Source: Gekko japonicus (taxonomy: Eukaryota). Taken from it: 64,000 bases of DNA. A model generated the notes under the pieces. That model saw nothing but the letters and a program-made list of their open reading frames with translations, was not told the DNA's origin and did no database searches. The DNA is taken from positions 1,304,417-1,368,416 of the forward strand of contig NW_015162474.1 of the NCBI RefSeq assembly GCF_001447785.1. Reading direction: 5' to 3'. Below are positions 10,500 to 57,456 of the stretch, piece by piece (position 1 is the first letter of the stretch; every line of letters begins with the position of its first letter). The position numbers and the translations under genes are program-made.

Positions 10500-10600
10500 T
10501 GTATTTCTCATCACCAGACACTCCTTCACTTATCAGAACATTTCAAGGCTCTTGAGATTAATGATTGTTGCTATGTAGACGGAGTATATATTATAGCAGG
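10500..10600 (+). promoter_or_regulatory. Putative LRRC10 core promoter (TATA-like element and GATA site)
   Basis: TATATATTATA at ~10585 and TTATCA at ~10530, 130-190 bp upstream of the ATG; motif match only. Confidence 0.35.
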
Positions 10601-10713
10601 ATGGAGGAAGTTGCCAGAAGAACAGCACACAGGGTAAAAAAAAAAGGCAGCTTCCCCAGTCCACAAGATTTATTCTTGTAGCAACAGCCCATTTACGTTG
10701 TGAAGTTTTCAGG

Positions 10714-11550
10714 ATGGGTAATGTTTTCAGAGCAGTTATTGCTTTTATTCCTTCTGATGACTGTCAGAAATACCTCCTAGGGGACCTTGAAGAGATGCCA
10801 ATTGATAAGATGCTGGACCTGAGCAGCAGCCAACTGAGGCGATTTCCCTTGTGTGTTTGTTCGTTTAGGGAGCTGGTCAAGCTGTACCTGAGTGACAACA
10901 ATCTGAACTATCTGCCCCCTGAACTAGAACAGCTCCAGAACCTCCAGATCCTTGCACTGGATTTCAACAACTTTGAAACACTCCCCTTAGTTGTGTGCAG
11001 CCTGAAGCAACTGTGCATTCTTTACCTGGGAAACAACAAACTCTGGGACCTTCCTATGGAGCTCCACCTTCTGAAGAACCTCAAGACCCTGTGGATTGAG
11101 TCCAACTGCCTGTACCACCTGCCCAATGTGGTGTGTGAACTGAGGCACCTCAAGACCTTGCACGTTGGATCCAATGCACTACGCTCCCTCCCTGGACAGC
11201 TTCGATACCTGCAGGAACTTCGTACTATCTGGCTATCGGGCAACCTTCTGGCTGATTTCCCACCTGTGCTGCTCCACATGCCCTTTCTGGAAGTCATTGA
11301 TGTGGACCGCAATGCTATCCGTTACTTCCCCAGTCTCAAGCAACTCAGCGGGTTAAAGCTGGTAATCTATGATCATAATCCTTGCAGAAATGCACCCAAG
11401 GTGGCTAAGGGGGTACATCGGGTAGGGAGGTGGTCAGAAGAGAGCCCAGAGCCTAGGAAAAGATCTGGTCTGGACAGGGGTAAAGAAGCTGAGGATATCA
11501 CTTCACTTCTGCCTCTGCCTCTCCCCTGCAAACTGTCTCTGTCTGATTAA
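10714..11550 (+). CDS. LRRC10: Leucine-rich repeat-containing protein 10 (cardiac), intronless
   Basis: 278 aa: MGN..AFIP.D.CQ.Y, tandem LxxLxLxxNxL repeats, LKLVIYDHNPCRNAPKVAKGV.RVGRW.EE; syntenic with CCT2/FRS2 as in human 12q15. Confidence 0.97.
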   Translation: MGNVFRAVIAFIPSDDCQKYLLGDLEEMPIDKMLDLSSSQLRRFPLCVCSFRELVKLYLSDNNLNYLPPELEQLQNLQILALDFNNFETLPLVVCSLKQLCILYLGNNKLWDLPMELHLLKNLKTLWIESNCLYHLPNVVCELRHLKTLHVGSNALRSLPGQLRYLQELRTIWLSGNLLADFPPVLLHMPFLEVIDVDRNAIRYFPSLKQLSGLKLVIYDHNPCRNAPKVAKGVHRVGRWSEESPEPRKRSGLDRGKEAEDITSLLPLPLPCKLSLSD

Positions 11551-20500: not shown

Positions 20501-23500
20501 CAAGGACACAGAGAGCATCATGTAAAGATCTTTCCGCCTCATCTATGATCTGCTGCGTCGCACCACGGAGAACTATGGTACAAGCTTCACCTAAAGACAG
20601 CCAAGATTACAAAACAGCAGTTAATTCTAGTTAGATCAACCACTCAGAAATTTTTAATGTCCCAATATCTACCATGACCCAGTTCAAATGTTATTCTTGC
20701 AGCATGGTTGGCGCCCCACAATGACTGGGTCTCCCATTTCATCTGAATGTATGGGAAACTCTGCCTCATGGATTTCCTCCATCATGTAATGGAGTCCCAT
20801 GCAGTGTTCCCTCTAAGCTGAGTTAGTGTGAGCTAGCTCAGTTTTTTAACCTCCGGCTCACACATTTGTGTCTTCGCTCAGGAAGGATGGCTTCAGAGCA
20901 AACTGATCTATGCAGTAGCTGAATCACTCGCTCACAACTTTAATGCCAGTAGCTCACAAAGTAGAGTTTTTGCTCACAAGACTCCACAGCTTAGAGGGAA
21001 CATTGGTCCCATGTCCACCCCCCTCTCTCAAATGAGCAGATTCTGTCATGAAGAAGTATCTGCATAACCTGGCCACCCATAGTGGCAGAGGTGGAACTTC
21101 AAGAATTAACAGTGGGTTTGAGAAGAACTCCTTCGACTTGAAGGAGATCTTCTCAGCCTTCCCTTTCCCCCCAGATGAAGCCACCACAACCTACCCATAG
21201 CAACTCCAGAGAAGTGAATAAGTTTATCTTCACCAATCATAACTTCTTCAATAAGGTTGCAGGTCCCTAGCTTTACCAGCTCTGGGTGATCGAAGGTTGA
21301 AGCAATTTCACCACCTGTGAACGTAAATTTACATAGCTACTGGCTACTATAAAACACCTTTTAAAAACTTAATATTTTGTAGGATAAAAATCCACATCCC
21401 AAACTGCAGTGTACGCTGCTAAAACAAACACCATGAACTAACGTTATGTAAATCAATAAGAACTAGAAACTGAACGCTAGAGCTGAATTACGATCTTTCG
21501 TAGCTGGTAAGGTCTGTGGAGAGGCCTGGTTTGGCGGCAGCTTTTTTTTTTTTTTTTTGCCTCGAGATGTCAGATCATTTAATAAAGTGAAGACATTTGA
21601 ACAAAATCTGTCCATTGTTATGCCACAAAACTTGAATACCAGCAACTTAATATCTTCGAAAAGATTCACAGAACGAGGGATGTTTTGGATCTTTTCAGTG
21701 CTTGACAACTTTTTGTGTGTGTATTGTGTGTATAGCTCTGTCCAACCTGATAATGCATGAATCATTAGCCAGCTTCATAAGGAGCTTTAGGAGCTTAAAG
21801 TTATTTTTATAAGAATTTCCAGCTTCTCTTCCACAAGCCAAGAGAAGAAGAACAGCAAGGAAAAAATCTGTCCACTGTAGGATAAAAAGAATGGCTGGGA
21901 TCCATGGGGAGAATTTCCACCAGTTCTCACCAGTATGTTACATTGCACAGTATTAATAGGAAATATAGGAAAATCAGATTGCATGAGTGGAATCTGCAGT
22001 TCTTTGGATTCAAATCTATGTCTTTTAACTCTTAGGACACAGCCAAGTGCCTTCAGTTCACAGACAAGTTGAAGGACACCATTGCTCTAGCCTTTAAACC
22101 TCTAGATACACACAATCTTCAAGTACTACATTTTGCAGACATTTCATCCACTTCTGTTGTAGCAATTTCTTCACTGAACACTTTGAAATGACTGCAAATA
22201 CAAAGCCAAAAATCAACAATATGTTGGTCAACACCAACTCTTGAATAAATAATTTGTCACTGTACCTGTAACAAGAGCCAAACGTTCAACTCCAGCAAAA
22301 TCTGCATGTTCAATAGCCATAACACCTGCAGCAGCAAACAACTGTTCTGGGTAGTTATAGATCAACTGCCTGCAATTAAAATGAATGCATCATAATGTGG
22401 AAGAAAGCAGGCTTATTTTTTCTCTCTTTACAGAAAGATTTCATGAAGGCCCACACATACCTGTTGATAAAACAATTTATTCCATGCTTCAGAATACGCT
22501 CAACCTTCTCCTTCATTTTCTCTTTTTCAGCTTGTTCTATTTCTGCCACCTTTGCTGTAGAATCCACTCGTACACGGGATCCAAATATCTAAATTCAAGA
22601 ATCAAGACCAGGCAGCAATATTTCCTAAATTGTTTTTTTAATACACACTCACACTACATAAATAAAATACATGAACACCTGCATCTGCCTTCTACTGGCT
22701 GAGATCCTTCGTCCATCAAGGTCAATACTGTCTATTCAGAATGGCAGCAGCTCTCCACTGTCTCAGGTAGTTATGTCTCATCACCTACTGTCTGGTCCTT
22801 TTAACTGGAGATGCTGGAGGATTGAACCTAGGACCTTCTGCATGATGAGCAGATGCTCTACCACTGAGCCTTAGCCCCTCTCCCTCTCATAGTGTTTACT
22901 GTGCTATTTTGTGCAGCATTTTAATTGTTTATATTATTTTATTTGCTTGTAAGCTCTTGAGCTGCTTCAGTATAAAAAGTGGGCCAGAAATTAATTTTTT
23001 AAATGTAATTTTTAGTTTACTTATATTCCATATTCTGGCAGATCAAATGTAGCAAATGAAAGTGTTTTTACCTCCCCCCCCCATCACTCACCTTAATTTT
23101 ATCAGTATCCATGCCAGTATTTGCAATAAGTATCTTTGCATTTTCAATTCTTTTTGGCTGGTTTACTCCAATTTTTTTATCCAACAGAAAACCTGAAAGG
23201 GAAGACAAGAGGCAAACAGACTTACTTTACAACAGTAAACCTATTTGATACTTTCCATTTTGCAATTAATTGTATAACATTCATTTAGAAGAGAAATTAA
23301 AACAGGAAACTTTTCCTAACCCACTGCCTGAAACATCAATAGTTTTAGACTGTGGGAAATTAAAATACATATAGTCATGAAAAAAACCTCCCAGTGACAG
23401 TGTGGAAAAATATGTACACTGGAAATGGGTAACAAAGGTATAGCCAGAACACAAGAAAATAGTTAAGCATCCATCCTTGAGAAATCAAAGTTAAGACAGA

Positions 23501-26500
23501 TAAATGTTCAGAAGTATACAAAAGCTTACCCCTATGAAATTGTTAGTCCCTTGTGTGAAACCTGCGTAACTGTAAATCGCTCAGAGCCAGCAGCTCTGCC
23601 GGATTGAGCGATCAATAAATCGAAAGGTATTATTATTATTACAAAAGCTGACAGAAGCAGCCTTCTATCAAAATTAAAAACTGAAAGACTGAGCATTCCA
23701 AGGAGTACAAAGACAATAATTCACCAAGGAGCAGAAAACTGTAGGAAAAACCAAGTACAAAAATATTACTACCATTACTAATTATTTATTAACTTTTCAG
23801 TTGTGATTAGTTCACCTTCCCTTACATAAATAAGAAGCTGAGTCTCACAACCTAAGCCAATTTGCCTATTTTCTACTCAGCAGTACCATCCATGCAGCAG
23901 GGCAATAGGGACTCCAGATGTGTCCCTGCCATGTGCAATGCAGCGCATCTGTAACAAATGTGCAATGCAGCGCATCTGTAACATTTGGGGCATCCTCCAT
24001 GGAAGGAAAAACCTGGGGAGGTTTTTGTTCCAAGTGTTGCAATAACTTGTAATTCAGCAATTTCCATTTCCATTCTGTTCCTGAAGTTCCTTTGTAATAA
24101 AACAGCTACTCTGAGGTCACCCACTGAAAGTCCTGGAAGGTTGAAGTGTTCTCCTACAGGTTTCTCAGTATTGTGATTCCTGATGCCAGATTTGTGTCCA
24201 TTTATCCTCTGACGTAAGGTTTGTCCTGTTTATCCTATGTAGAGAACTGAAGGGTATTGTTGGCATATATAATGTTAGAAGATGAGCAAGTGAAGGAGCC
24301 TCTGATGGTGTAGTTGATGTTGTTAGGTCCAGTGATTGTGTTGTCTGGGTGTATATGACATTAAATGCCAACAATGCCCTTCAGTTCTCTACATAGGACA
24401 AACAGGACTCAACAGGGATATTGGTTTCTTATCTCATTATATATGCTAACTCATTCAGTTCTCACATATGTATTCTCATACAGAGGGACTATATATTTTC
24501 TGTATTTTAGCGTATTTCTTTTTCAGAATAGTATATTAGAATACTGAATGCAATACAAGGAATATTGGAATGTTTGGCTGACATAACACTGCTAAGTGAC
24601 CTCCACGCCTGAGAGGAGTGAATGGAAAGAATCAGTCTTATTTTGACATATCTATTGCTTTACAACTGTTGACCTGATAACCTTAGCTTGTTATTTAGTT
24701 CTTGTCTTCGCATATCTTAAAACATCATCATCATGTTACATCAGCTCGTCTATAAGTTTGAGCCTTACCTTCCATTCCAATGTATTTGAAAAAGTGCTGC
24801 GTGCACACGAAAGCTTGAATAAAACTTTGTTGGTCTTAAACATACCACTGGACTCTAAATTTGTTCATCTACATTGAGGCATGTTCCACTGCCAGGGGAG
24901 TTACTTCAGAGGTATTATCTGGGTAAAATACCTTATGTTGGGACTGATCTTCCAAGTGATTTATTTTTATACTTATTTAGTGAAAACTTGCTGTTGCAAA
25001 GAAAGACCATGAGGCAGTGGAAGAGCACACACCTAATATCTCCAATTAAAGAATTTCTGTTCTGACTCTGTATAAAGGAGCTTCATATAGTCACACTATT
25101 TACTACAAGAAGCAGTGACAAGGTTTCCACAGATGCCTTTTGCTCTCACAAGCAGCACACTGAAATGGCTAATAAGTGAAATGATACCTTCATCTAAATA
25201 AGAGTCTATCAAACTTCCTCCTAGCTTCTTGATGACATGAATGGCTTCCAGGTTCCCAGATCCCTTCAGTCTAAGGACAGCATCCACTGCAAGTTTAGTA
25301 AAGTGTTCTTTATGATGAGTAAGTAGTTTTGAAGACAGTGTTGTTTCTGCAATGTTCATCAGATCCTGTTGAAACTTGGCTTCATTAGCACTAAAAACAA
25401 GAAAAGCTGAACTTAGATTACATTTTATTAAAAAGTGGCCACTCCTCAAGTTCTACACATAAACAGCAAGGTGTTCAAGTCTACAAGAGCATCTACCTGT
25501 GTCACCAAGCCAGCCATTCCTAAAGTTTGAAGAAACTTCAGCACTTTCAACACACTGCAAACAGCTGATGTTGGAAACAATCAATAAGAATTTGCATGCA
25601 CCCCCTCTCTCATACACTGAACCTGCATATGCTTAAAAGGCAAACCCTACCCTCAAACCCTTCAGAAGGACCTTACAGCATTACACTGTATACATTCAAG
25701 AGGAACGAATTTAAAGCTATAGCTTATATATAGGCAGGCAACAGTATCATGCTCTTTCCTGAGAAACCATGTTTTTCCTTGCAAAAATGAAAGACTTCAG
25801 TAGCCTGGCAGTTAACAGCTATCAATATGGACAAGCAGTGCAAGAGGCCATTAATATATAAATAGTTCGTATGCTGTTAACTAAACTACACAATGTATTA
25901 CAAAGCACTGTTCTCAAATGCTGAGCTTTCCAGAACCCCAAAAGGTCTATGCATCCCTGGCAACAGGTTTTGTCTCTTCAACAAAACCTTTTTTCCCTTT
26001 CCTTATACCACACTTACCAAGGGTTCAAATTCTGACACATGCCAAAGTTTTTGAAATTTAAGATAATCTTACTGTACATACTGGCTGACTTCCTAGAGGA
26101 AGCTCTCTGGTGTCTACTGCAGATTTTGTAATGTTTTATCCACCAGATTTTAACACTCACAATGCTATTATTACCTCAACGATATTACCTCAAGTAATAT
26201 CAAATTCCACCTTTCAGGAAAGTAAGTAGTATTTAGCTCTTAATGCTGCTTGCCTCCCAGGTACAGATGTAAAACATCTGCACGTAAGCATGGCAGCTCA
26301 AGACAAAAAAGCCACAAGCCTGAGACACTAACCCATGATCCACTGAAGATTTCACCAATGCTTCTCTTGCTGCTTTTGTGGCTTCTCTCCAACCGGCAAT
26401 GATGGTTTGAGGATGAATCTTTCTTGCAATCAGTAACTCTGCCTCCTATTAACAATCCAGTTTACTTTAATAAGTCTGAAATGAAATACCTACAGCTTGT

Positions 26501-36249: not shown

Positions 36250-36900
36250 TTATTTATTGGAATTACAGCCAACCCTCGGGCTCAGAGCGGGTAACAATAA
36301 TCAAATAAAATTATTAAAAACTTATACACTGCTAACAATCAATACGATGACACATGAAAAGGGAGCACAACACAGTGCTCCTTATTCTGGGGAAAAGTGA
36401 ATAACATACAGATTAATAAATAAGGGGATAGCAGCAAGGGAAAGGGACAGGGAGAACAAGGGAGGCCAGTCTGAATGAAAACCATCGTTGTCCTCACCCA
36501 TAGGCCTGACAGAACATCTCAGTCTTACAGGCCCTGCAGAATTGCATCAGGTTTTGCAGAGCCCAGGTCTCACTCTACAGAGTTACACCCGGTCGGGGCC
36601 AGGACCAAAAAAGCTCTGGTTGAGGACAGCCGGATATTTTTTGGGCCAGGGATCACCAGTAAGTTGTTATCATTGAGCATAATTCTCTTTGGGGGATATA
36701 CCAGGAGAGGTGGTCCCACAGATATGTTGGTGCCAGACCATTTAGAGCATTAAAAGTTAGTACCAAAACCTTGAATCTGATCCAGTATTCGATTTGGAGC
36801 TGATGCAGCTGGCGGAGCACCGGATGAATGTGGGCGCTAAGTGGGGTTCCAGTAAGAACCCACACCACCACATTCTGGACCAGTTGGAGTTTCTGGCTTG
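36250..36900 (-). mobile_element. L2 3' fragment
   Basis: HIHPVLRQLHQLQIEYWIRFKVLVLTFNALNGLAPTYLWDHLS; tail ttacccgctctgagcc. Confidence 0.8.
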
Positions 36901-38120
36901 TGTGAAAGCAATCTTTGTGTTAGGAAAACGATCCCCTCAACACATTCCCACAAGTGCTGCACATTTACAAACACCCCAGATTTACTGCTAATGTGGAGAT
37001 TGTCTGAACGGCTCACTGTCCAGTCACACCCAAATCTTTCTGCTTTATTGCATAATACATGACTCTCAGATTTGGGGCTGTCAATAAACAACATAGGGAC
37101 TGATTTCCTATCCATCCCATGTCCTCACTGATCATTGACTTGTTTATACTTCTCACAGAAACAATCCCTTTCCAGGGGTTGTATTACATCAGAGTGCAGA
37201 TGGAGGTACTGTGTTTGAATATCCTTTCAAAGAATTCCTTGCAGGTAGAAAACTTCCATGGCAAGGAGAAGGTTTCTATGGTCAGTTGCTTTGTGTAGAG
37301 AACTTTGTATGCACAGAGGATCATTCAACCATGTGCTATCCTCCTGCTTGGGTAACACGGGAATTAGAGAGAGAAAATGAACTGTATAAAAAGATTGAAG
37401 GCTGGATATCAAAGGCTGTATTAGAAAGTCCATAGGACTGTATTGTATTTCCCAGCCAAATGCCTATCCTTAACATGGCCCTATATTCAGCATTTTCTAC
37501 TTGAACAGATTTGCCCCCCAAAGAACGTTGAAATTATTGCCCTTTTGAGATCAGTAGGTTATTTCTTCAAAGTTATCCCAATCCCTTTGAGCACAGTAAC
37601 AGTTAAGGCAAAATGCCAACTACAAACTGAGGTAGGGACTGCTATACTCAGTAAATAAATAGTTTGTTTTCATAATAAACTTGAATAATTCAGAAAGATG
37701 GAGCAAGCCATGACAGTCACAGCCAATAAAAATGTATTGTGTATAATGCATGAAAGAAAAGTTTAAATTGGCTTGACTGTAAGAACTCAAAAAGACATAG
37801 CAATCCCTGAATCAGAAACCCAATGAGCACTGCACATGTTTACATAGTAAAAATCAATATTTTATTGCCATGCTACAATTCGTATGAAGCTGGCACTGGT
37901 AAGGGGACAATGTTATCAATATTACAGAACACATTTTAAAATGGAAATCTGGTAAGCTCAATGAAAACGCAAGCCAAAATTAATTGGTAGTACATGGTGG
38001 TTGAAAATAAAAAACATACTATGCATAGTATAATATCATTTTGTCTTGAAAGGAAGATTGGAATGTTCAACAAGAACTAGGGGAAGGGAAATTCAAACTA
38101 AGTTTTTGTGTGAGAGAGAT

Positions 38121-38143
38121 TTTGGCAATGGTAATACCCAACT
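38121..38143 (-). promoter_or_regulatory. Extensively complementary miR-182-5p target site
   Basis: + strand TTTGGCAATGGTAATACCCAACT vs miR-182 UUUGGCAAUGGUAGAACUCACACU. Confidence 0.8.
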
Positions 38144-41100
38144 CTTCAGACTTTTTTTTTATAAAATAAACTCTAAAAAGCTACCTTTATACAAAGTTGC
38201 TATATTGATGCCTTTATGTAGGAAAACATTTTTATAATGCAAAATTAGGACATACAACAACTTTACAGTATTTTACAATGTAATGACAAAGTAACAAACA
38301 AATACAGTTTTGGCTTTTATAGAAATGTATATTTATGCATTTCATAAATGCATTTGTGGCACACTGGTGATTACTTGACTACTATTGTCCATTTTCATGC
38401 TAAGACTTGAGATCAGTTGTACCGTAACTTCAGAACCATAGTGTGGTTAAAGTGGCAAACAATGCTTCAGATGACATGGTTGTAAGTGATGCTACAATGG
38501 AATGAAATGTTATGCTTAAAAATTTCTTTAAGAAAAGAAAGGCACCATACTTGCTGGTTGGGACACACTATATCACGTTATATGTTACAAACATTATTTC
38601 CTTTTGCAAAATGGAAGCATTTCCTATACATTCAGTAGCAATCAATGTCTTATAACCAAGACAACTGCCTGCATTCAAGGTTTGGCAAATATCAGGGAAA
38701 ATACAGAATTAGTACCATAGATATGTATTATACATATATATATATATGCATTAGAAATTAACAGGGAGTTAAGGTTGTTGACACCTATTATTAGAACAAA
38801 AGCAAAGTATACAAAAATTCCTGAGTGAAGGGTCCTCTCCATTTTTAAAATGTGTTTAAGAGAAAATGCCTTAAAAATCAATGCACTAAGTAAAATTCAG
38901 TAATCTCTTTCTGCCCATTAACAGAATTAAAATCATCATTTGTGAATTCTGCTAACCACATCATCTTGTGACACAGACATTTCATATTTTCTGCTAACAA
39001 AACATACAGTCCATGCACTGGAAGACTTTAACTTTGTGCCTTAGAGAGGGAGTTCAGATGCAAGTGAATGACTCAGGTAAGCACTACTAGTAAGCACTAC
39101 TTTATTTAAATAATCCCCTTCTTCACAAGTGCAAAGGAAAATGGTAGTACCAGTCCTGGTTTGTGGCTAATCTTACAACATTAAAGGAGTCATCAGGCTG
39201 TCCTAATATTGCTCAAGGCTCATTCTAAAGCCTTGAGACACTTCAAGCAGACCAACAAGGATATATTTATGCTTTAATCAGAATGCTATCTAGACCTCTC
39301 ATAAACTGTAGGTCTGGCCCTACATCACAAACTCTTCTGTGGTAGGTTTCAAAACTGCTGATCAGGGAAAGATGCCTTTTTGTGACAGGTCCTTTATGAA
39401 CATATACGGTAAGTCTACTCTCTGCCTAGAAATCTAACCATCCAACTGCTAATGACAGTCATATGTTCATATTTATATGGAAAAAGGTACAATGCAATGG
39501 ATATAACAGAAAATATGTACTTGATGAAATATATAATTTACCAACATGAAAACAGTATAAGTACTTTAAATGCCCTTTGCAAATATACTGTTAAAAGTAA
39601 ACACACATTGTTTGAACTATAAAGGCAATCCTGTATTAAATTTAAATCTACTTCCACACAAAATATTGTGTTAATATGTATTAAACAGCATATTAGGATA
39701 GCAGCCTAATAACACATTTGACAAGACATCTTGTACATAGCTCAAGAGACATAACTATGAAGACCTTTTAATATTTGTGGCAAGAGCCATTCTGCACATT
39801 GGACTGGCTCAGTTAATGCTGACCTGTACTATCAGAAAGAAGAGATGCAGGACTGAAAAAATAATGTAAAATCAAGTTATAACTTGCTTGTACATATACC
39901 ATGAAACAGATATCAGGAACCTTAACTCCATATTAACATAATTATTTTCTGTACGGATTTCCTTACGGATTTCTTGGGCCCTGTGGGATATAAAGCACAC
40001 CATTTGCAAGGGAGAACAGAATGCCTGCACCATTAATAGGTTTAAGGGGAAAGACTGACAGATGAGAAAAGCTGAACCTAAAATCCCCATTTCTATGCAG
40101 TTATTGAAGTTACAGAAGCTCTCTCCTTTTGTATTCAAGAATGCTAGCATGATGAAAGAATGAACAATATTAGAGCTTAAGTACAGTCTCTGATTCTTCT
40201 GTTACTATAGAAATACTGTGAGATATCACTATGCTACTATTCACAAAGAAAGTAAGAATATAGAACTGAAGTTACTAATGATTTATGAAGAAACAATTAA
40301 ATTTTATTGCTTAACTCTAGTGATGGAAAAGAACAATATTACAGGATTAAAGTGTTTGTCTAGCCAATATTGCTAATTCAAAGTATGTCACCATAATTCT
40401 GGGCTTCATAATTTGGTTTTAAAAGAAAGCCTTGTGTTTTACATTTAAAGGGATGGGTATCTGCTTCAGTCTTTCCTGAATAAACAGAATGAAAGTCTAA
40501 AACCCTATCAGAAACTGACCACAACTGACCACTGTAGAATGAGATCCCATACAATACTGCTTAGGTCTAGTCTATTACCAGTTTGTACGTATAGTTAGAA
40601 GAACAATCCATAGTACAGTAGAAGCAACAGTACCAGTGACAAATTGAAGTTCAAGCTACTCACAACCATACCGTCAGCATGATAAACTGCATGCAGCCTG
40701 AACTCTTTAGGCTTTATCTGCACCAAGCCTTTTTGAAAAAAACATTTCATTTTACCTTCCTTTCCTGGCCCAGAAATAATTTTTGACAAGTTTCCTGTAT
40801 GTGTGTTCTTGCCCACTCTTGGAATTTAAGCCCTTTAAGTTGTACATTTTCTACCTTTGGCACAATGTTTAAGAGTCCTGCAAGTCTAATGGGGGGGGGG
40901 AATATGGGGAAGGGGGGGAGTAACATACACATGACAACTTTGAACTTGGAATATCGATGATTTATGGGATTATGAAATAGAAGCTGAAAGCCTGACTGTT
41001 TGCAGCTAAGATGCGTAAGGTGTATAAGCGAATGGTAATAGTGCAAATTCCTTGCAAATAAGCAAAAGGAAACATAGAGAGACAGTGAATCAGGAGAGGT

Positions 41101-41316
41101 GGCTATGAACAGAGACAACATAAAATACTCAATCCACAATCCAATGTTGAAAAAACACTTGCACCTTTTCAAATGCATGATTTTGTGCAAGAAAACCATG
41201 CTGCTTTCTCTGCACAAGTAGCAGTGGCACATTGTGGTGGTGGTGGGGAATTACTGAAGCAGTCACAACTTTTGCATTAGGTTGTTCCAAGGCAATCTGC
41301 CCTCCAGTGATAATAC

Positions 41317-41505
41317 TAGGGTTGCCCATTCCTGGTGGGGAAATTCCTAGTGATTTGGGGTGGAGCTTGGGGAGGGCAGAGTATAACAGCATGGAGTCCA
41401 GCCTCCAAAGCAGCCGTCTTCTTCAGGGGAACTGATCTCTGTAGTCTAGAGGTAAGTTTTAATTCCAGGAGCTCTCCAGGCCCTACCCAGAGGTTGGCAG
41501 GTCTA
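41317..41505. mobile_element. hAT MITE (TAGGGTTGCC family)
   Basis: Homologous to 2312-2558; TSD gataatac (41309-41316) / gatactac (41506-41513). Confidence 0.8.
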
Positions 41506-41937
41506 GATACTACCCCAATTTAGCTTCTGTATTTGATGAAACAATTTCTGCATTGCCTTCAGCAAAAAAAAAGATGTGACAATTTCTGCATTGCCTTCAG
41601 CAGGAATAAATCAACACAGTTTCACTGTAGAATTATAACAGCAAGCATTATCATCTTCACTCACATTTTGGTAGGATGTTATTTAATTGAACTGGATGAG
41701 GTTATTGATGTCAAGGTACCCCCTGCCTAGGTGATGGGTTGTAAGGGCTGTGTTTCATCCAATAGAGAATCTGGTAACCTGATAATCAGTGCCGGCTCAT
41801 TTTTCCTTTTTAAGTGGCACAAGTTTAGAAATATATCAGCACCTGATAAATCTCTGAAGCAAAGATGGGGATCTGTAGGATGTCCTCTAATCAAAGAACA
41901 GGATTCCAGTAGCCAGCACAGTTAATTTTATTTTTTG

Positions 41938-42275
41938 GAGGGGCTATGGCTCAGTGGTACAGCATCTGCTTGGAATGCAGAAGGTCCCAGGATCAATCTC
42001 TGTCATCTCCAGTTAAGAGGACCAGGCAATAGGTGATGTGAAAGAACTTCTACCTGAGGCCCTGGAGAGCTACTGACAGTCTGAGTAGAAGAAGTGAGTA
42101 GTGACTCACAAAAGCTCATACCCTACCACAAATTTTGTTTAAGGTGCTACTGGGAACGTACTCTTTTCTACTGCTACAGACTGACTAACACGGCTACCCA
42201 TCTTGATCTGAGTAGACAATAGTAACTGTGATGAACCAATGGTCTGATTCAGTATAAGGCAGCTTCATGTGTGTT
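41938..42275 (+). mobile_element. Squam3-type SINE with nested Penelope pLTR fragment (42090-42206)
   Basis: GGCTCAGTGGTACAGCATCTGCTT head, GGCAGCTTCATGTGTG tail; insert flanked by 10-bp direct repeat tctgagtaga (42080-42089, 42207-42216). Confidence 0.85.
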
Positions 42276-43687
42276 TACTTCGGCTCTCCACTATTTGCCT
42301 CAATTCCAGTTTTCTTTGGGAGAACATAGAAAGATCAATATACAGATATGTTTGCAAGGCATAATATGATTTGGGCTGACATATAACACAGCCCTGAGGA
42401 GGAATGTTTGATTTTATAGAGATGGTTTCCAGAGTAGCACAGCACATCCCTGTTATTAAGGCTGGTGAGGTTTTATTCTTGTGAATGTAATAAACTGTCA
42501 TATGCAATTTAAAAAATAATAATAACAAAATTATATCATAAGACCTCAAATCAGTTAATATTAGCACACATATTTTTAGCTTTTAATAATAATGAATCAC
42601 TGACCATTAATGTTATAACAGAAAGGCACCAGAGAAACTGCATGCATTCTTTCAGGGTATCACATGGATGAATAGTATTGCCACTTTTTCACAGGATTCT
42701 GTGAGGATGAATTTCTTCCTCATGCTGGTTATTTCCCCCCAAAGTATTTGGTGCTTTCCTGCTAAGCACATCTGCAAGTCCAATGCAAATATTAATACTG
42801 ATGACAAAGTAAAAGGAGCCCCAGATCTGCAGATGATGAACCTCTTGCCAAAACTTTGATGAGTCTCCAATAAAGTGCAGATCTTATGATTTCATAGCAG
42901 CTAATTAGACAAACCATCTGATTCTACTGAAAAGACAGCAAAGAAGCTCTGAAATCATCTTTAGCTGATTAAAAAAAATCAGAGAGGAAAGAACTATCCT
43001 AATTTCTTTCCAACATACATGCAAACAGGTGATGTTGAGGTTCATAAGAAGCAAAGACAAGTTAAGGCATTTCTTGGGGAAACTGATGAAACAAAGGATT
43101 TGCATACAGAAATAAAATGGTAGCCACGTCCTTCTACCTAACTCACTCTGGTGTACACTTGCAATATCCATTACTTAAGCAAGATCCTGGCCTTGAACAG
43201 GAGGAAGTATAGGCAGTCAGGGCACAATTTACTACAGTACAGGCAAAGAGACTTTTGTAGACACATTTTATTTGCTGCTGGTTTGAGTGTCGGCAGTCTC
43301 TTTCTCGGCCAAAACCAGAGCTTTTTTAAATACCCAAACTTTTCCCACAGATGGATTAAAAAGATAGGGTTTTAATGTTCTCTCAATATTTGGCAATGGA
43401 CGATTCCTTTTATTTTTTCCTACTTGCAAAAGATTATAGCTAGCAGTACATCTGAACACGTTCCATATAATATGATCAGGAAGCTAGTTCAGGCACTATA
43501 TAGCTTTTAAAACTATTATGGAAATGAAAGCCAGAAGTTTACAACTGAATAGAAAAGCAGCTTTTCCAGGAGGCTCTCCATTTTTTCTTTTTTTTTGCTC
43601 AACTGTCACAGGAAGACAGTTAGCTTTTAAAAAATGGGGGGTAGGTGGGGGATCTATTGCACACAATTTTACTCAATACTCCAGGAT

Positions 43688-43904
43688 GTGTGTGTGTGTA
43701 TGTGGACGCTGTCAACCTGCAGCCAACTTATGGCAACCTCTGAAGGGTTTTTAAGAGAAGAGACATTCAGAGGTGGTTTGCCACTGCCTGCCTCTGCGTA
43801 GCACCCCTGGACTTCCTTGGCAGTCTCCCATGCAAACACTAACCAAGGTTGACAGTGCTTTTAGCTTCTGTGATCAAGCTAGCCTGGGCCATCCAAGTCA
43901 GGGT
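43688..43904 (-). mobile_element. 5S rRNA-derived SINE with RTE-like tail
   Basis: gtctcccatgcaaacactaaccaagg..tgcttttagcttctgtgatc is degenerate reverse-complement 5S rRNA; (CA)n tail on minus. Confidence 0.65.
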
Positions 43905-46262
43905 CACAAGCAGTTTGCAATACCTCTTACTTCCTCTAGAATTGAAGGTTCAGGTTGCCTGTGTTGCATGGAGTCTTGTGCTGCACCAGCAGCCCTACAT
44001 GCTTTTCTAGCATAAAACTGAGGCATTTTTGAACAGAGCACCAAGGAAGATAAGCAGATGGTAGATGTATTGGGAATATTCAGCAGTAGTAAAGTATAAT
44101 CCATTCACAAAAATATTGCTTTCAGGGATCTTATGTACTGTTAGCAGCTACTCAGGTCTCAAGGCTTGCTGTGCCAGCAAGCCTGATGCTTAAGATGGAA
44201 TATACTGCTAGCAGCCCAACATTACAAAGGAGGACATTGTGGCAACATTGCAAGGGATTTTACTGGCATCCTGCACAGATGTGCCAATGTAGATGGAAGC
44301 AGAACAGGATCTCTGTCTCACAAAACCCAACAGCACTATTATTTATAGAATATGCATTAGTACACCACATGATGGATTCAAATCCAGCCTTCAGACTATG
44401 ACACTGACCTATGATTGTTTGCCTCTGGAAGAAACCAAGGCATGAAAGCTCATACCAGTTATTTTCTAAGGTGCCACAGCACTTCTTAACCTTAACTACT
44501 GATAATTAATGTTTCCTTGTGCAGGCAATAAAAAGGTCTTTCTGTTACTGACAATATTACCAACAGGTCTTCAAAAAGCTTTTCTATGGCAATATGGAAC
44601 TTGAACAAGATGAAATGCATAAAATATTTTGAAGATTATATACAAAATTAATAGTTGCAATTTAAACACTGTACAGACACACAGATGAAAAGGGAGGAAA
44701 GTAAAAGTAAAATAAAATTTAAAGGATCTTATTATAGATACAACGTAACTCTGAACTACATCAGAAATGTCTTCTTAATATCTGTACAACTGTACAGAAA
44801 AACATGAAGCTGCCACTTGAAAATCTGTAGTGGGTCTAACACAAGGCTGATTGCAGATTCTGATGAAAGGGAATACTGTTGTGATGTCTCCCATGTCAAC
44901 AGTGACAAGTTCTTTTCTCAAGATGGCCAAAAAAGTCTAACAGAAGCACATGGGCTGGGGCAAGGGACTGCTTATTTTTTCTTCCAGTTGCAAGGAATTT
45001 TATTCTGATTACATTTATATCCTACCTTTCTTCCATCATGGAACTCAAGGCTGTGTACAAAGGATTCCAAAGATTTCCCACCCATGCACTGATCAGACTC
45101 TTAGTATCAAGCAAGGTGATAGCATCATGCGTACTATCTCTTGGGCTGCTCTGGGAGATTACCCTGATCTTCAGGAGTAACTTCGAGTGGCAGAAAGGGG
45201 TGGGAAACAGAGAACACCCATTGCACATGCAGAACATTGCACGTGGGCCTTTGGATTCTGGCTAAGGAACTTCTAGCCCTTCAGCACAGTACAAACTGTT
45301 TTGTGCCAGCCATACCAACTTGCCAAAAAGTACAATTTATCCAGATGTATCCCATTTTCCTCTAAATGGAATACTTGCTACACATTAATCACTGTTAATT
45401 TCAACCTCAAAGAGAAAAAGAAACAAAACTGCAGCATAGACTATTTCTGAAATGCAAACTACAACACAACTTGTTCCTCAAATACTAGTTGCTGCATTTA
45501 TTGTTGGCGGCTTTAAAGTGCATCTGGTCATTAATTCATGAAGTGTTTAAAACTGCACTAAATGATCTTTGTATGCTTAAAATGTTGCTGATTTAATCAG
45601 TTTTTCTCAAGCCACTCACTCTAAGCAGTGGCATCATATATACTATTAAATGTTTACTTACTACTTGGATTTATAAAGAGTTGCACTCTTCAGTACTGTG
45701 ACAAGCTATATGGAGGGCTTTAGAGAATGACAGTTGCTGCCAGTTCTTTTTTATCAACTACGTTCTGGTTTCTGCCAGAGTAATTCAGTCCAAGTTTTCT
45801 GGATAGAGGAATTTGTACCCTTTTTTGAGTCAATTAAAACAGACCAGAGAATCTCTCATTTATGCCACATGATGTTCAACTGGAACATTTGCGTCTATGG
45901 ACATATGCTATGAAAGAATATACTGATCTGCTAAGAACGCAAGTTTCAGGAGGCATAAAAAGTCATGCCTTTAAGGGGCTTCAGGCACATGGCCAGTTTG
46001 TCAAAATTGGCATGTTACTCCAACTTTCAGTCAATAAAACAGGTACTGTCCAAAAGCTGTTACTACAAATGTAAAATGAAGCAGTGTTATTTAATACTCT
46101 ACCTTAAATTCCCTTTCATTAAACAAGCACATGAAATATTCAGAAAAAAGTCTACTGAATCTATGAAAGGTGATTTTTAAAAATCAAAATGGAGCACTCA
46201 TTCATTTCTAAAAAAAAAAAACTTCATAAAGGTGCAAACAATTTAACTAATGCATTCCAGGC

Positions 46263-47252
46263 TCACATAGGCAAGTCAGTACTGTTATGTCTAGTTTTTC
46301 GAGAAGTACCGTCGTCTCGTGGCAGTGCTTTCTGCAAGCTTGACATAGCAGCTGTTCTTTCAATGTCTATCACGGCATACAGCTCTGTGCGCCTAGTTGG
46401 AGTCTGTGGAAGAGGAGTGGTAGGAGTTTTGGGGGTCTGAGGGTTATCAGAGTCACTGCCACCTTCCAGATCAACCTGTATATAGTTGAGCTGCCTGTGT
46501 TCTGAATTCGGTCGCCTAATATCAAAGTTAAAGACCGTAGGGGTACAGTCTCGCCGTCGTGCATATTCTACTTTGTGAGCACTTAATGGCACTGTTACAT
46601 TCTCTGTATTGACATAATTATGCATGGGATCTAAGTTATTGTGGTAGCCATTCAGAGAAGGGGTCTTTGGTCCTAAACTGTCATCATCCTCTTTACTTAG
46701 CTTATGGGCTTCCCAAACTGGCGGCAAAGATGGCAAATTTTCATAATTCAGTAATGCAGTTCTCCTTTGAGCTGAATTGTTGATATTCTGTGTATCGGAG
46801 GTACTGGATGATATCAGACGACCTCTCCTGAGCCCTGGAGCACTAGGTATAGACAATCTATTTACATTTTCATATGCTAGTTTATTACCAGAAGAGGCTT
46901 CTTTGCGTTCATCACTGTCATATCCAGTGTCCCATTCACTGTTACTACTCCCACTAGCTTGAGTGCTGCTCGCACTAGTTTCAGTACTGTTTCCAATAGC
47001 GTGAGTACTGTTCCCACTTGTTTCCAGTTTCTCTTTTTCCATTAATTGCCTCTGGACAGGTGTTGGGCCCAAAATAAATTTGACTCCTTCAGGTTCCAGT
47101 ACAACCTGGGCATCTCTGTCCTCAGAACAATTTTCTTCTTCTTTCGCCTTGCTTGATTCTGCATTAGAAACCCTTCGTTCCAGAGGCGTACGCACACCCA
47201 GCCTGTTTTTTCTTTCCTCCTGTACACCAGTTGTATTCACATACGTATGCAC
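46263..47252 (-). CDS. FRS2: FRS2 last coding exon
   Basis: VHTYVNTTG...RKTRHNSTDLPM*; tttacag acceptor. Confidence 0.97.
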   Translation of the reverse strand: MHTYVNTTGVQEERKNRLGVRTPLERRVSNAESSKAKEEENCSEDRDAQVVLEPEGVKFILGPTPVQRQLMEKEKLETSGNSTHAIGNSTETSASSTQASGSSNSEWDTGYDSDERKEASSGNKLAYENVNRLSIPSAPGLRRGRLISSSTSDTQNINNSAQRRTALLNYENLPSLPPVWEAHKLSKEDDDSLGPKTPSLNGYHNNLDPMHNYVNTENVTVPLSAHKVEYARRRDCTPTVFNFDIRRPNSEHRQLNYIQVDLEGGSDSDNPQTPKTPTTPLPQTPTRRTELYAVIDIERTAAMSSLQKALPRDDGTSRKTRHNSTDLPM

Positions 47253-50200
47253 CTGTAAAGGACAAATTAAAGTGTCAGCTGCAATATCACACAGCTCCAT
47301 ATGATTTGCCTTACTCCCTTTACAGCTCATGGCCAATGACTACATAGTATTGTTGTTCCTAAAACAGTACATAGTGACATGTACATATGCTTGTGCAAGA
47401 AACTATTTTCTCAACACTTCCACCACAGAATATAAGAGTAATAAAACCTCAGTACAAATATATGTCATGGTAACACTGGACATGTACATAAGAATTAGAT
47501 TAAAATGGGAATACAATTAAATTAAAAATCAACATTCCTTACCTGCTCCTCTGCTACAAGCAAAGGATGTGTTGACTCTTCACCTACTGAAGGAAGACGT
47601 GCACTTCCTACAGAGGGGTGTCTGCTGGAGGGATGGGATGAAGCATCTCCATAGGAGGGATATCTTGGATACCCATTTGGTAAACTCTGACCACTCAACC
47701 CAGGTGCTGATTGGAGAGAAAACCCAGTTATTCTATTGATATGAAATGCTGTTTTTCTTCAGAAAATGTTTCATGAAAACGTATATATTAAACATTAAGT
47801 CATTCTGAAACAGACTTGAAAATGCAAGGATTTCCTGATCACCACTATCAATCCTGTCTTTTTAGGAATATATTATAACATTTAAATTCACTGGTATTTC
47901 ATACTCAGTTGCAATTATTAAGTAATGTGAAATACAAATCCAGACATCTTTAAGAATGACAGGTGTGTTATTTTTGAAAATGCAATACTAGCAAAAAAAG
48001 AGTTTGGGCTTGTGCACATGAAACATTTTCAGCTCTTTTAATGGACTGAGAGCAGCTCTGTGGGATCAGATGCTCCCAACCCTAGATTGTCTCATCCAGT
48101 GCAAACTGCCTTATACCCCACCGACCTTCATCCCCATTAGGAAAGCACTTTGATGACAGTTAACAGTAACTAGGGTAAACTGTTACAATGTTGACACTAA
48201 CGACAAACTCTGCTTTCAAATCCTGGTTAGAACTGATCATAGTTAAGAACAATGCCAGTAGGATGATAATAGCTAGGAAATTCATGCCAGAGAAGTGAGG
48301 TCACATTTAATTTTTGGCCACTCCTCAGCTCTTTCTGTACTCACAACTTACTGCAGCGTGTCCAAGCACTCAAGCCTATAAACTTGACTTCAGACTTCTG
48401 TGTCTGCTACCTGCACCAGTCTTACTTCATCTGGTGTATTTATTCTGTAGCTACAAACCACCACCCCACCTGCACTTTTCTAAATCTGAGTGGAATGTCA
48501 CTTGTGATGTGTGGTGGGCAGTGTCCAATTAAAAAATGTTTTTACACAAATTGCCCCATCACAGCTGTGCAGTAGTGTCCAGCAAGCACCTTCAATTTCA
48601 ATCCTCATAGTTCATGGTTTGCACATGCCTTTTAGTGTTAGCACCCTGAATGATAGGGAACAAAAAGAAACACAGGGAAAGGGGGGGAACCCACTGTTGA
48701 AACTGACCAGACTTGTCCTGAAATTGACAAGGAGCTGAGAAGCCCTGTTTTCCATATTGTTGAGCACTAAGGGAGAGGGCAGCTCTACTGCCTATGTGTG
48801 TGTGTTGAGTGTCTTCAAAAGTGCTGCTTGAATGTCGATAACTTTTGAATGGCAGCAAACAGCCCCTCTTTGTAAACACATAGCTAGCTTCTCCCCTTTT
48901 GGTCTCCCACCTCCTTCTCCTTTCTAAGCAGCCTGCCTGTTCTCCCCCTCACTCTTCCCTGATCTGAGAAGCAGAGGCACAGAAGCTAAGCTAAAGATTT
49001 CTCCTTTAAGGTTCAGAGGATGGGTTTGTCCTGGCTTATGATGAGTGCTTGTGGGAGGGCCAATTCTTTCCCCTTTCCCCAGGACAGCAGGAGAAGGCAG
49101 CTCTGAACTGACGGGCTCCCTGCAGGCACAGCCATGTCAATGGCTCCCTGCATGTTCAGCTGTGCACTGCCTTCTCCCTGCTGGTTGGCTTAAACTTGGC
49201 AGGCTCCTTGGTGGGCTCTGTTGAGCTGGGGCCTGCCCAGCAGAGCCCCAGCCAATCCTGCAGGGAAAACTCTTCACATACACATAAACCACCAACTCAG
49301 CCTTTCCCTATAATTATTTTAACCCAGAGAAGCCAGTTTAGCAAAAAACTGATTTCGCTAAACTCATTCTGCTTGTAAAAAAAACCCCTTTACATGAGGG
49401 AAAAAGTAAGCACTGATGAAGGGGATAAGATGGCAGAAGGTGCAGAATGGGCAGAATGACCTCAGTGTTGGCAGGGGGAAAGGGGCGGAGAAATCCGGGA
49501 GAAACTGTATGCTTTTGAATTACTGTCAGCTTGGAAGAGAAGCAAGGGGGAAAATTGTCACAAAACCACTTTCAGAAAAGCCAGAGAAACAGCTAACAGA
49601 AAGCAAACTGAGAGATGAAGGGACAAAAATCAATGCAGAGCTAAAAAAAAATCCTGATGGACATGCAAGGTGAAAATGGAACGAAATGCAGAACAAAAAG
49701 ATACCGCAATGGAGAGGCGCTGTGAAAGTGAGGGAAACTACCAGCCTTATTTCGCAACTATGGTGAAGGAACTGGGAGTGTTACATGTAAGTTAGTCCTT
49801 TGATTACAGTCCTTTCTGTACAATCTCTAAGAATTTGGATCTTACAGGTAGCCCATATGAGATTTCAAATTATTCGTCCCAGAAGAACATTTTTTTCAAG
49901 CAGATGTCATATGACTAATAATAATGCCTTAAACCATTTCAGTAATGCTGAAAGATTTTGCAGTTTTTCTTAAAATCTGGGAGGGGAGGAACAAGTGGGG
50001 GTCAGGGCCTCTCATTTTTATTTCTTCTTTTCATCTGTCTGGGACTTCATACCTCTAACCTCTCTCTTAAATCAGTAAATATGAGTCTTCACCACACGTG
50101 AACATTCACAAGGAATATTAATGCTGAAAACTGATGAGGTAACATCTTGTTGTGACTCTAGAATGCCAAAAGTAAACCTGGTAACCTGAGATTAAGTTCA

Positions 50201-56200: not shown

Positions 56201-57456
56201 GTTGCCACCAATACAGATCCTTGGAGAAGCCCACCATTTATCTCCCTTCATTTGGAAAACGGTCAGTTTTTCCCCAACTCCCTTGAAGAGGGAGAATATC
56301 TCCACAACATCTTCCATGGTTCAAAACAAGGCAAAGTTTCAAAAGGATGGCATGGCAGTCAGTTACATAAGACCAAGGATTTCCACTGAGCTAGTATAAG
56401 CTCTTTCTATAATCCTGAGCAGCTCTTCTTAATGCATTCTGCATATTCTTCTACATCACTAAAACAGGAGCTATCATAAACCTTATTCAGCATATTTCAA
56501 TAGAATTACTAAATGAGAATTCAGTACTGTAGGCTATTTGGTGATTTCAATAAACTTCCACTATTACTTACAAAATCACTTTTGGAAATACAGAACTAGG
56601 CTAAATTTCATTAACTTATTTTTAATCAGAACAATTTACATTGTAAGATCCATCTCCCTGTAAGTTATAAGGACATTGGACTATTTTAGTAGGCTATTTT
56701 GAGTCTTCTAAAACAGAACAAACACAGCTAATACACCTATACTTTGCACCTGAATTTCACTTACAGATTTGTGAAATGGGAGGCTTCATACATACCTGGT
56801 CCAGTTTGACATCTTCGGCCACTTTCAAAAGAGAAGAGGTTGGAATCATAGCCATAGCGGCGCAGACAAAGGTAATGCCACTTGACAGAATCCCGTTTAC
56901 GAGTATACAAGATTAGTTCTGTGTCAGTAAGTTCCATTATACCAGAACCCAATTCATTACCATCATCATCCACATTAATAACCTATAAAATATTTTTAAA
57001 AACACAACATTAAATGCTTGCATATTTAAAGGTAAATCATTTCACAGTTACTTAAAAGTAATTAACTAAAACCATGTATCCCATTAAATTCAACTGGAAA
57101 AAGAATTTTTAACTGAAGTCTCAGCACTATTCCAGAGACAGGCAGCATAAAGTTATCCATATAGATTATAAATGTTCATGAAATAGCATGGCTCTGTGGT
57201 AAAACAGTACCAGTGGATTATATTTTCTCTCTGTACTGAGCTCATGGGTGTACAGGCCACACATACTTCAGAAGAAAACTGAAATTTACCATGGAAGTTC
57301 CTATTAATCCTTAACATTCCTCCTTCTTCCTTGCCATTGTAAAACAGAACTCAGACCATCAAAGCAACAAAATCCCACACAAAATTTTACCTTGAATTTG
57401 TTTCGATGGTTATCTGGGACATTTTCTTTATCTGGACAGCTACAACAGCTACCCAT
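46263..57456 (-). CDS. FRS2: Fibroblast growth factor receptor substrate 2, 5 coding exons, 521 aa
   Basis: join complement(57391-57456, 56796-56982, 50232-50390, 47543-47706, 46263-47252) = 1566 nt; MGSCCS myristoylation motif, IRS-type PTB, YVN/YEN/YEN/YVN Grb2 sites, NYIQV and LYAVI Shp2 sites. Confidence 0.98.
47543..47706 (-). CDS. FRS2: FRS2 coding exon 4
   Basis: PGLSGQSLPNGYPRYPSYGDASSHPSSRHPSVGSARLPSVGEESTHPLLVAEEQ. Confidence 0.96.
50232..50390 (-). CDS. FRS2: FRS2 coding exon 3
   Basis: IFAFKCARAEELFNMLQEIMQNNSINVVEEPVVERNQHQTEMEVPRTPRTPT. Confidence 0.96.
53200..54110 (-). mobile_element. Old CR1 3' fragment interrupted by a MITE
   Basis: ccttttaaagccatctaa..attccttttatcggtttagaattt..gagaaaaaactc resembles the reverse complement of 28260-28570; further pieces at ~54900-55100 and ~55950-56250. 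Confidence 0.6.
53558..53935. mobile_element. Composite hAT MITE (CAGGGCT TIR, ATGCTAAT-rich)
   Basis: CAGGGCTATTTTT / AAAAAAAGCCCTG; TSD gacatccc (53550-53557) / gacttccc (53936-53943); extra internal TIR ending 53741. Confidence 0.85.
54340..54700 (+). mobile_element. Penelope pLTR tail split by a poly(A)-tailed antisense insertion (~54391-54645)
   Basis: ctgacaaagtgtgcatgcacataaaagctcacatc ... catcttgaataaaaatttgttgctcttaaaggtgctattggactc, homologous to 24781-24867. Confidence 0.7.
56796..56982 (-). CDS. FRS2: FRS2 coding exon 2 (PTB)
   Basis: VINVDDDGNELGSGIMELTDTELILYTRKRDSVKWHYLCLRRYGYDSNLFSFESGRRCQTGP. Confidence 0.97.
57391..57456 (-). CDS. FRS2: FRS2 coding exon 1 (exon starts at 57482)
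   Basis: MGSCCSCPDKENVPDNHRNKFK|gtaa; upstream ctgtag acceptor. Confidence 0.96.

What the first reader, a model, noticed from the sequence alone, without database searches (positions are those of the whole stretch)
38121..38143. Near-perfect miR-182 site in the distal FRS2 3'UTR (slicing or TDMD geometry)
Seen: the + strand reads TTTGGCAATGGTAATACCCAACT. Against miR-182-5p (UUUGGCAAUGGUAGAACUCACACU, from memory) the minus-strand mRNA pairs at nt 1-13 continuously, with G:U at 14 and 18, a mismatch at 15, a bulge at 21, and pairing to the 3' end. Pairing across nt 10-11 permits AGO2 cleavage, which is rare for animal mRNAs. I recall FRS2/miR-182 being reported as a conserved cleavage target in mammalian degradome work, so this may be a reptile orthologue of a known site; that needs verifying.
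Basis: partly seen in the sequence, partly recalled or inferred. Interest (0 to 1): 0.7.

Follow-up and report, generated by a model that had tools for sequence, protein, structure and literature searches.

The report
Conserved miR-182 cut site in FRS2
Near the likely end of the FRS2 messenger RNA of this probably reptilian genome lies an almost full-length match to the microRNA miR-182, the likely counterpart of a site already reported in mouse and human FRS2, so miR-182 would cut or repress this growth-factor signalling message here too: a known case extended to another lineage, not a new mechanism.

Summary
Observation confirmed. With miR-182-5p read from this genome's own hairpin, the minus strand at 38121-38143 pairs as described: nt 1-13, G:U at 14 and 18, mismatch at 15, bulge at 21. 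The gene is FRS2. RNA-seq depth drops sharply just before an AATAAA 255 nt downstream, so the site is transcribed; continuity with the coding exon was not tested. The match is rare for a UTR of this size (1 of 2000 shuffles) but not genome-wide (5 of 78 other 13-mer hits are as stable). It is known in mammals: a mouse degradome table lists miR-182-5p/Frs2 3'UTR, Frs2 rises 1.7-fold in slicing-dead Ago2 fetal liver, and human reporter primers show the same nt 1-13 match and flank. This genome's AGO2 keeps the catalytic residues. Unbroken pairing at 9-12 favours slicing over TDMD. No cut was observed here. The scan's index held no earlier FRS2 note. New member of a known kind; interest 0.3.

The parts
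38121..38143 (-). Extended miR-182-5p site (8mer seed match plus central and 3' pairing)
   Evidence: -27.7 kcal/mol
38130..38131 (-). Predicted AGO2 cut, opposite guide nt 10/11
   Evidence: register; cut itself not observed
37861..37866 (-). AATAAA, likely distal poly(A) signal, 255 nt downstream of the site
   Evidence: read depth falls at about 37900 in 3 of 3 raw-read runs; no poly(A) tails seen
38681..38688 (-). miR-182 8mer (also miR-96 7mer-A1)
40856..40863 (-). miR-182 7mer-A1 / miR-96 8mer
43389..43399 (-). miR-182 8mer with WC pairing to nt 11, weak 3' pairing (-17.9 kcal/mol)
37840..46262 (-). Inferred long FRS2 3' UTR (about 8.4 kb); further AATAAA at 39101, 40303, 41927 and beyond could end shorter isoforms
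   Evidence: inferred from stop codon and distal signal; continuity not tested by reads
46263..47339 (-). Open frame holding the last FRS2 coding exon and stop codon (exon start not mapped)
   Evidence: no Pfam family; assignment from position downstream of the PTB exon and recalled FRS2 C-terminal motifs
56785..56958 (-). FRS2 PTB (IRS-type) domain exon
   Evidence: PF02174 hit; best PDB match FRS2, 118.9 bits, against FRS3 92.9

Best explanation
This is an extended miR-182-5p site near the transcribed end of the likely FRS2 3' UTR, the likely orthologue of the mouse and human FRS2 site, and miR-182-loaded AGO2 would slice the mRNA there, probably slowly, on top of ordinary seed-based repression. 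Steps: (1) shown: the genome encodes miR-182 and an AGO2 with intact catalytic residues, and the site is in transcribed RNA; (2) inferred: AGO-miR-182 binds the 8mer, nt 13-20 form a second helix, and unbroken pairing at 9-13 lets AGO2 reach the slicing state and cut between 38130 and 38131, removing the last ~290 nt and the poly(A) tail; (3) inferred: AGO1/3/4-bound miR-182, and miR-96 via shared seeds, repress through this and three other seed sites; (4) inferred: isoforms ending at upstream poly(A) signals escape the cut. The net effect would be lower FRS2, and so dampened FGFR/Trk-to-ERK signalling, in cells rich in the miR-183/96/182 cluster.
For: Pairing nt 1-13 WC plus 16-20 and 22-24. 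Site inside the read-covered region in 3 of 3 raw-read runs, all of one study. All 3 plus-strand miR-182 8mers of the 64-kb window fall in this UTR (31 of 2000 shuffles reach 3). AGO2 exons covering D597, E637, D669, H807 are identical to human AGO2 over 30, 65 and 52 residues (the residue numbers are recalled as catalytic). Mouse ESC degradome table: miR-182-5p to FRS2 3UTRexon, 1.5 mismatches (PMC4838385 supplement rows). Frs2 is 1 of 3 of 35 listed substrates raised in slicing-dead Ago2 mice, 1.7-fold in fetal liver (10.64898/2026.05.22.727060). Human FRS2 has four miR-182 sites and is derepressed by anti-miR-182; the reporter primers begin with the complement of guide nt 1-13 and carry the same T-run/ATAAAA flank (PMC6380276; compared by eye). 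miR-182 has A7 and G10 and nt 17 is paired, features that favour slicing (10.1101/2023.10.15.562437).
Against: No degradome or RACE data for this species. The site has 3.0 mismatch units against the 22- and 24-nt guide, above the 1.5 cut-off that gave the best signal in the mouse degradome study. The mouse row rests on a 0.4-RPM small RNA that differs by one letter from canonical miR-182. The Ago2 paper does not name the miRNA in its main text and its supplement could not be read; 32 of its 35 substrates were not raised. C17, a 24-nt length and only middling pairing at 9-12 (-2.5 against -5.0 for the strong example) predict slower slicing. The site is about half paired in a local fold (mean unpaired 0.52). 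Continuity of the UTR with the coding exon was not tested, and the libraries show no strand.
Confidence: 0.68

Rival explanations
1. High-affinity seed plus 3'-supplementary site: real and conserved, but repression is by deadenylation and decay, with negligible slicing.
For: G:U at 14 and mismatch at 15 break the helix just past the centre; 3.0 mismatch units; most listed mammalian substrates do not rise without AGO2 catalysis; human anti-miR and reporter data do not separate the two routes.
Against: Frs2 is one of the three that do rise in slicing-dead Ago2 mice; supplementary pairing does not need nt 9-12, yet these are matched here and in the human primer.
Confidence: 0.22
2. TDMD trigger: the FRS2 mRNA destroys miR-182, for example when the miRNA is held by a non-slicing AGO.
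For: Seed plus pairing to the guide's 3' end; centrally paired targets can sometimes trigger TDMD, and fully paired targets give weak, intermediate ZSWIM8 activity with slicing-dead AGO2 (PMC10899785, PMC13083262 passages).
Against: Validated triggers have a 3-11 nt loop that opens nt 9-10; here nt 9-13 are all WC and the 3' pairing is broken into 5+3 pairs with a wobble. Searches for FRS2+TDMD (2 papers listed) and ZSWIM8+miR-182+trigger (7 listed) showed no such report in their listings.
Confidence: 0.07
3. Chance match without function.
For: 80 copies of the 13-mer genome-wide, about the chance number; 5 of 78 others as stable.
Against: It lies in the very gene and 3' UTR for which mouse and human sites are reported, with a matching flank, beside two more 8mers.
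Confidence: 0.03

Closest known systems
Mouse Frs2 / human FRS2 3' UTR miR-182-5p site (PMC4838385 supplement; PMC6380276; 10.64898/2026.05.22.727060)
   Same: Same gene, same miRNA, same nt 1-13 match, T-run/ATAAAA flank on the same side, several miR-182 seed sites in the UTR; by eye also the mismatch at 15 and the wobble at 18, if the two human primers abut (inferred).
   Different: Here nt 14 is G:U and nt 16 is paired, with a bulge at 21; in the human primer nt 14 is WC, nt 16 has no partner and nt 21 pairs (by eye). The inferred UTR is about 8.4 kb, longer than the roughly 5 kb recalled for human. No cleavage data here.
HOXB8 / miR-196 slicing site (PMC6223193 and PMC4206712 passages)
   Same: Near-full complementarity in an mRNA 3' UTR allowing AGO2 cleavage; conserved in vertebrates.
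   Different: HOXB8 pairing is described as (near) perfect; this site has two wobbles, a mismatch and a bulge, so slicing should be slower.
Canonical TDMD triggers (Cyrano/miR-7, Nrep/miR-29b; PMC10899785, PMC11648932 passages)
   Same: Seed plus pairing reaching the miRNA 3' end.
   Different: No central loop; 3' pairing interrupted.

Membership tests
miRNA-directed AGO2 slicing target | WC pairing through the seed and across guide nt 9-12 | tested here: met
   nt 1-13 WC
miRNA-directed AGO2 slicing target | Extensive 3' pairing, including nt 16-17 | tested here: inconclusive
   16-20 and 22-24 paired, but 3.0 mismatch units against a 1.5 cut-off used in mouse degradome work
miRNA-directed AGO2 slicing target | Site lies in a transcribed RNA of the antisense orientation | tested here: inconclusive
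   Region is transcribed and depth ends by a minus-strand AATAAA; libraries unstranded, link to coding exon untested
miRNA-directed AGO2 slicing target | Cognate miRNA gene and catalytically intact AGO2 in the genome | tested here: met
   mir-182 hairpin; AGO2 exons identical to human over the four catalytic positions
miRNA-directed AGO2 slicing target | 5'-phosphate cleavage product opposite nt 10/11, dependent on AGO2 | not testable with these tools
   No degradome run offered; mouse orthologue listed in a degradome table
Orthologue of the mammalian FRS2 miR-182 site | Same gene, same site and flank | tested here: met
   FRS2 PTB exon; human primers match site and flank by eye; no formal multi-species alignment (one search found no orthologue in 54 metagenome loci)
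TDMD trigger (ZSWIM8) | Unpaired loop at nt 9-10 between seed and 3' helix | tested here: not met
   nt 9-13 all WC; feature
TDMD trigger (ZSWIM8) | miRNA rises when trigger or ZSWIM8 is lost | not testable with these tools
   No such report in the listings

The most novel reading that the evidence does not exclude
The FRS2/miR-182 site is an amniote-wide slicing site, kept for some 300 million years with the 3' pairing rearranged but retained, and placed just before the last poly(A) signal so that 3'-end choice switches FRS2 between cuttable and uncuttable forms; on non-slicing Argonautes the same site could also degrade miR-182 and so set its level apart from miR-96 and miR-183.
Probability: 0.1. 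Interest if true: 0.65.

Novelty: new member of a known kind. Interest (0 to 1): 0.3.

Why it matters
Endogenous mRNA slicing targets are few in animals, and most listed ones do not respond to loss of AGO2 catalysis; Frs2 is one of three that did. Finding the site, with central pairing intact, outside mammals suggests the slicing geometry has been kept by selection since early amniotes and makes FRS2/miR-182 a good test of why AGO2 kept its catalytic site. It does not reveal a new mechanism, and the conservation is probably visible in public UTR alignments (recalled, not checked).

Tried and rejected
Run search: no RNA holder listed on record; ten guessed-RNA contig sets hold most words but only one was laid and it gave no spanning piece, so they are not used as evidence. 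Metagenome scan for orthologous sites in host-derived contigs: 54 loci, 0 with an FRS2 flank, 2 are mir-182 hairpins, the other 52 look like chance matches. Shin 2010, Karginov 2010, Chen 2017 and Becker 2019 were not held, so the original degradome reports were not read. Bracken 2011: no FRS2 in the main text or in 3 of 4 supplementary files. No FRS2 in PMC4206712, PMC6223193 or 10.1101/2025.04.02.646793. The miR-182 hits in PMC11648932 were miR-1829 where shown. Search for the fish AGO2 defect gave 0 papers. miR-96 as the guide for this site: rejected, -11.3 kcal/mol. The miR-183 rows used a guide shifted by one base and were dropped. The site being a miRNA gene itself: rejected, Rfam finds only two tRNA-like repeats in the window. 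Earlier scan notes: none on FRS2; none used.

Full report
Observation. To avoid a guide from memory I located mir-182 in this genome: one match to RF00702 at 101.6 bits, whose 5p arm starts at L001:1508. Against the 24-nt arm, the minus-strand RNA pairs WC at nt 1-13, G:U at 14, A:A at 15, WC 16-17, G:U 18, WC 19-20, bulged guide nt 21, WC 22-24, at -27.7 kcal/mol; a perfect target gives -41.4. miR-96 from the same cluster gives only -11.3, so the site is specific for miR-182.

Chance. In 2000 dinucleotide shuffles of the putative UTR, 1 gave a seed-matched duplex as stable, 3 gave WC pairing from nt 2 to 13 or beyond, and 31 gave three or more 8mers. These are for one miRNA picked after the fact. 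Genome-wide the 13-mer occurs 80 times against 74-102 expected; I fetched all 78 places other than this site and the miRNA gene, and 5 of 78 give a duplex at least as stable. Counting G:U as 0.5 and mismatches or gaps as 1, the site scores 2.0 with a 20-nt guide and 3.0 with 21, 22 or 24 nt; 4, 12, 4 and 1 of 78 do as well. The sequence is therefore unusual for a UTR but not unique in a 2.5-Gb genome.

Gene and transcript. A PF02174 exon lies at 56785-56958 on the minus strand; its best solved-structure match is FRS2 (118.9 bits; FRS3 92.9). The long minus-strand frame 46263-47339 ends in the likely stop. An LRR gene at 10597-11550 and a TCP-1 exon at 25096-25452 fit the FRS2-CCT2-LRRC10 order recalled for mammals. 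The site is 8120 nt past the stop and 255 nt before an AATAAA at 37861-37866. Reads were laid on 36500-38171: in three raw-read RNA-seq runs of one study, summed depth per bin between 37900 and 38123 was 22-51, 3-8 and 25-33, against 0-8, 0-1 and 0-7 left of 37844; five read ends pile at 37905 in one run. So the site lies within a transcribed stretch that ends near that signal. The libraries show no strand, no poly(A) tails were seen, and whether this RNA is continuous with the FRS2 coding exon is left open. The inferred UTR holds three miR-182 8mers (38121, 38681, 43389; all 3 of the window's plus-strand 8mers), one 7mer-A1 that is a miR-96 8mer (40856) and three 6mers, and eight further AATAAA between 39101 and 45497.

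Machinery. Piwi-domain exons fall on a three-gene cluster and a separate locus, C17387, among others. The C17387 exons are identical to human AGO2 at residues 584-613, 615-679 and 766-817, which cover D597, E637, D669 and H807 (recalled as the catalytic tetrad; D669A is named as the slicing-dead variant). The slicing defect recalled for teleost AGO2 therefore should not apply; I could not read that paper.

What is in print. PMC4838385 (passages; supplement rows) lists miR-182-5p with FRS2, 3UTRexon, 1.5 mismatches, among mouse ES-cell degradome targets; the small RNA in that row is a 0.4-RPM variant one letter off the canonical guide, so the call is thin. Preprint 10.64898/2026.05.22.727060 (passages and section 19; supplement unavailable) lists Frs2 among 35 literature AGO2 substrates and finds it one of only three raised in slicing-dead mice, 1.7-fold in fetal liver; the miRNA is not named in the main text. 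PMC6380276 (passages; supplement rows) states that human FRS2 has four miR-182 sites, rises with anti-miR-182, and that a one-site reporter behaves alike. Its reporter primers begin, one with the complement of guide nt 1-13, the other with a stretch that reads like 38134-38165 here, ending in the same T-run and ATAAAA. If the primers abut (inferred from their design), the human site shares the mismatch at 15 and wobble at 18, pairs WC at 14, lacks a partner for 16 and pairs 21; the variant guide of the mouse table would then score 1.5, as listed. This comparison was by eye. Shin 2010 and Karginov 2010 were not held. Listings show no report of a reptile site; listings are not full texts, and public UTR alignments probably show it (recalled). 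A metagenome scan gave 54 loci, none an FRS2 orthologue.

Mechanism. Slicing needs pairing across the centre. In 10.1101/2023.10.15.562437 (passages and section 11) a purine at 10, A/U at 7 and 17, a short guide, a paired nt 17 and strong pairing at 9-12 favour it. miR-182 has A7 and G10 but C17 and 24 nt; nt 17 is paired; its 9-12 core is middling (-2.5 against -5.0 and -0.3 for that paper's strong and weak examples; my calculation). With a wobble at 14 and a mismatch at 15 I expect real but slow slicing, added to seed-based repression. TDMD triggers usually have a 3-11 nt loop opening nt 9-10, although centrally paired targets sometimes work (PMC10899785 passages), and a fully paired target gave only weak ZSWIM8 activity (PMC13083262 passages). 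This site lacks the loop, so TDMD is a minor possibility. Odds: slicing plus repression 0.68; repression without meaningful slicing 0.22; TDMD 0.07; chance 0.03.

Verdict. A real site, correctly described, and the likely orthologue of a reported mammalian cleavage target. It works like a miRNA slicing site; membership is met on geometry and machinery, inconclusive on 3' pairing, untested on the cut. New member of a known kind, interest 0.3. The scan's index held no earlier FRS2 note.

Noticed in passing
L064 (G000:C15659:815400-815492), L044 (G000:C11803:924112-924204), L074, L071, L065: Five other genomic places pair with miR-182 at least as stably as the FRS2 site (to -31.0 kcal/mol; L044 is WC at nt 1-18). 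About what chance gives; not checked for lying in transcripts.
   Followed up: no
window 43389-43399 (-): Second miR-182 site with WC pairing nt 1-11, crossing the 10/11 position but with little 3' pairing.
   Followed up: partly
window about 38152: One-base length variant of the T-run next to the site in 8 of 11 reads of run X20; on the mRNA this is an A-run just upstream of the site that could mis-prime 3'-end libraries.
   Followed up: no
L137:709-782, L137:1944-2021, L001:1501-1577 (G000:C11351): mir-183, mir-96 and mir-182 lie in order on one strand, but mir-96 and mir-182 are about 19 kb apart, wider than the roughly 4 kb recalled for mammals.
   Followed up: no
window 41940-42011 (+) and 22806-22878 (-): tRNA-like heads of probable SINEs; the first lies inside the inferred FRS2 UTR.
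   Followed up: no
window 10597-11550 (+), 25096-25452 (-): Single-exon leucine-rich-repeat gene (likely LRRC10) and a TCP-1 chaperonin exon (likely CCT2), matching the recalled mammalian neighbourhood of FRS2.
   Followed up: partly
window 36500-37843: Low, patchy read depth beyond the likely poly(A) site; read-through, repeats or DNA carry-over.
   Followed up: no
L127, L133: Two metagenome contigs carry animal mir-182 hairpins, 90% and 87% like this genome's: host DNA in the assemblies.
   Followed up: no
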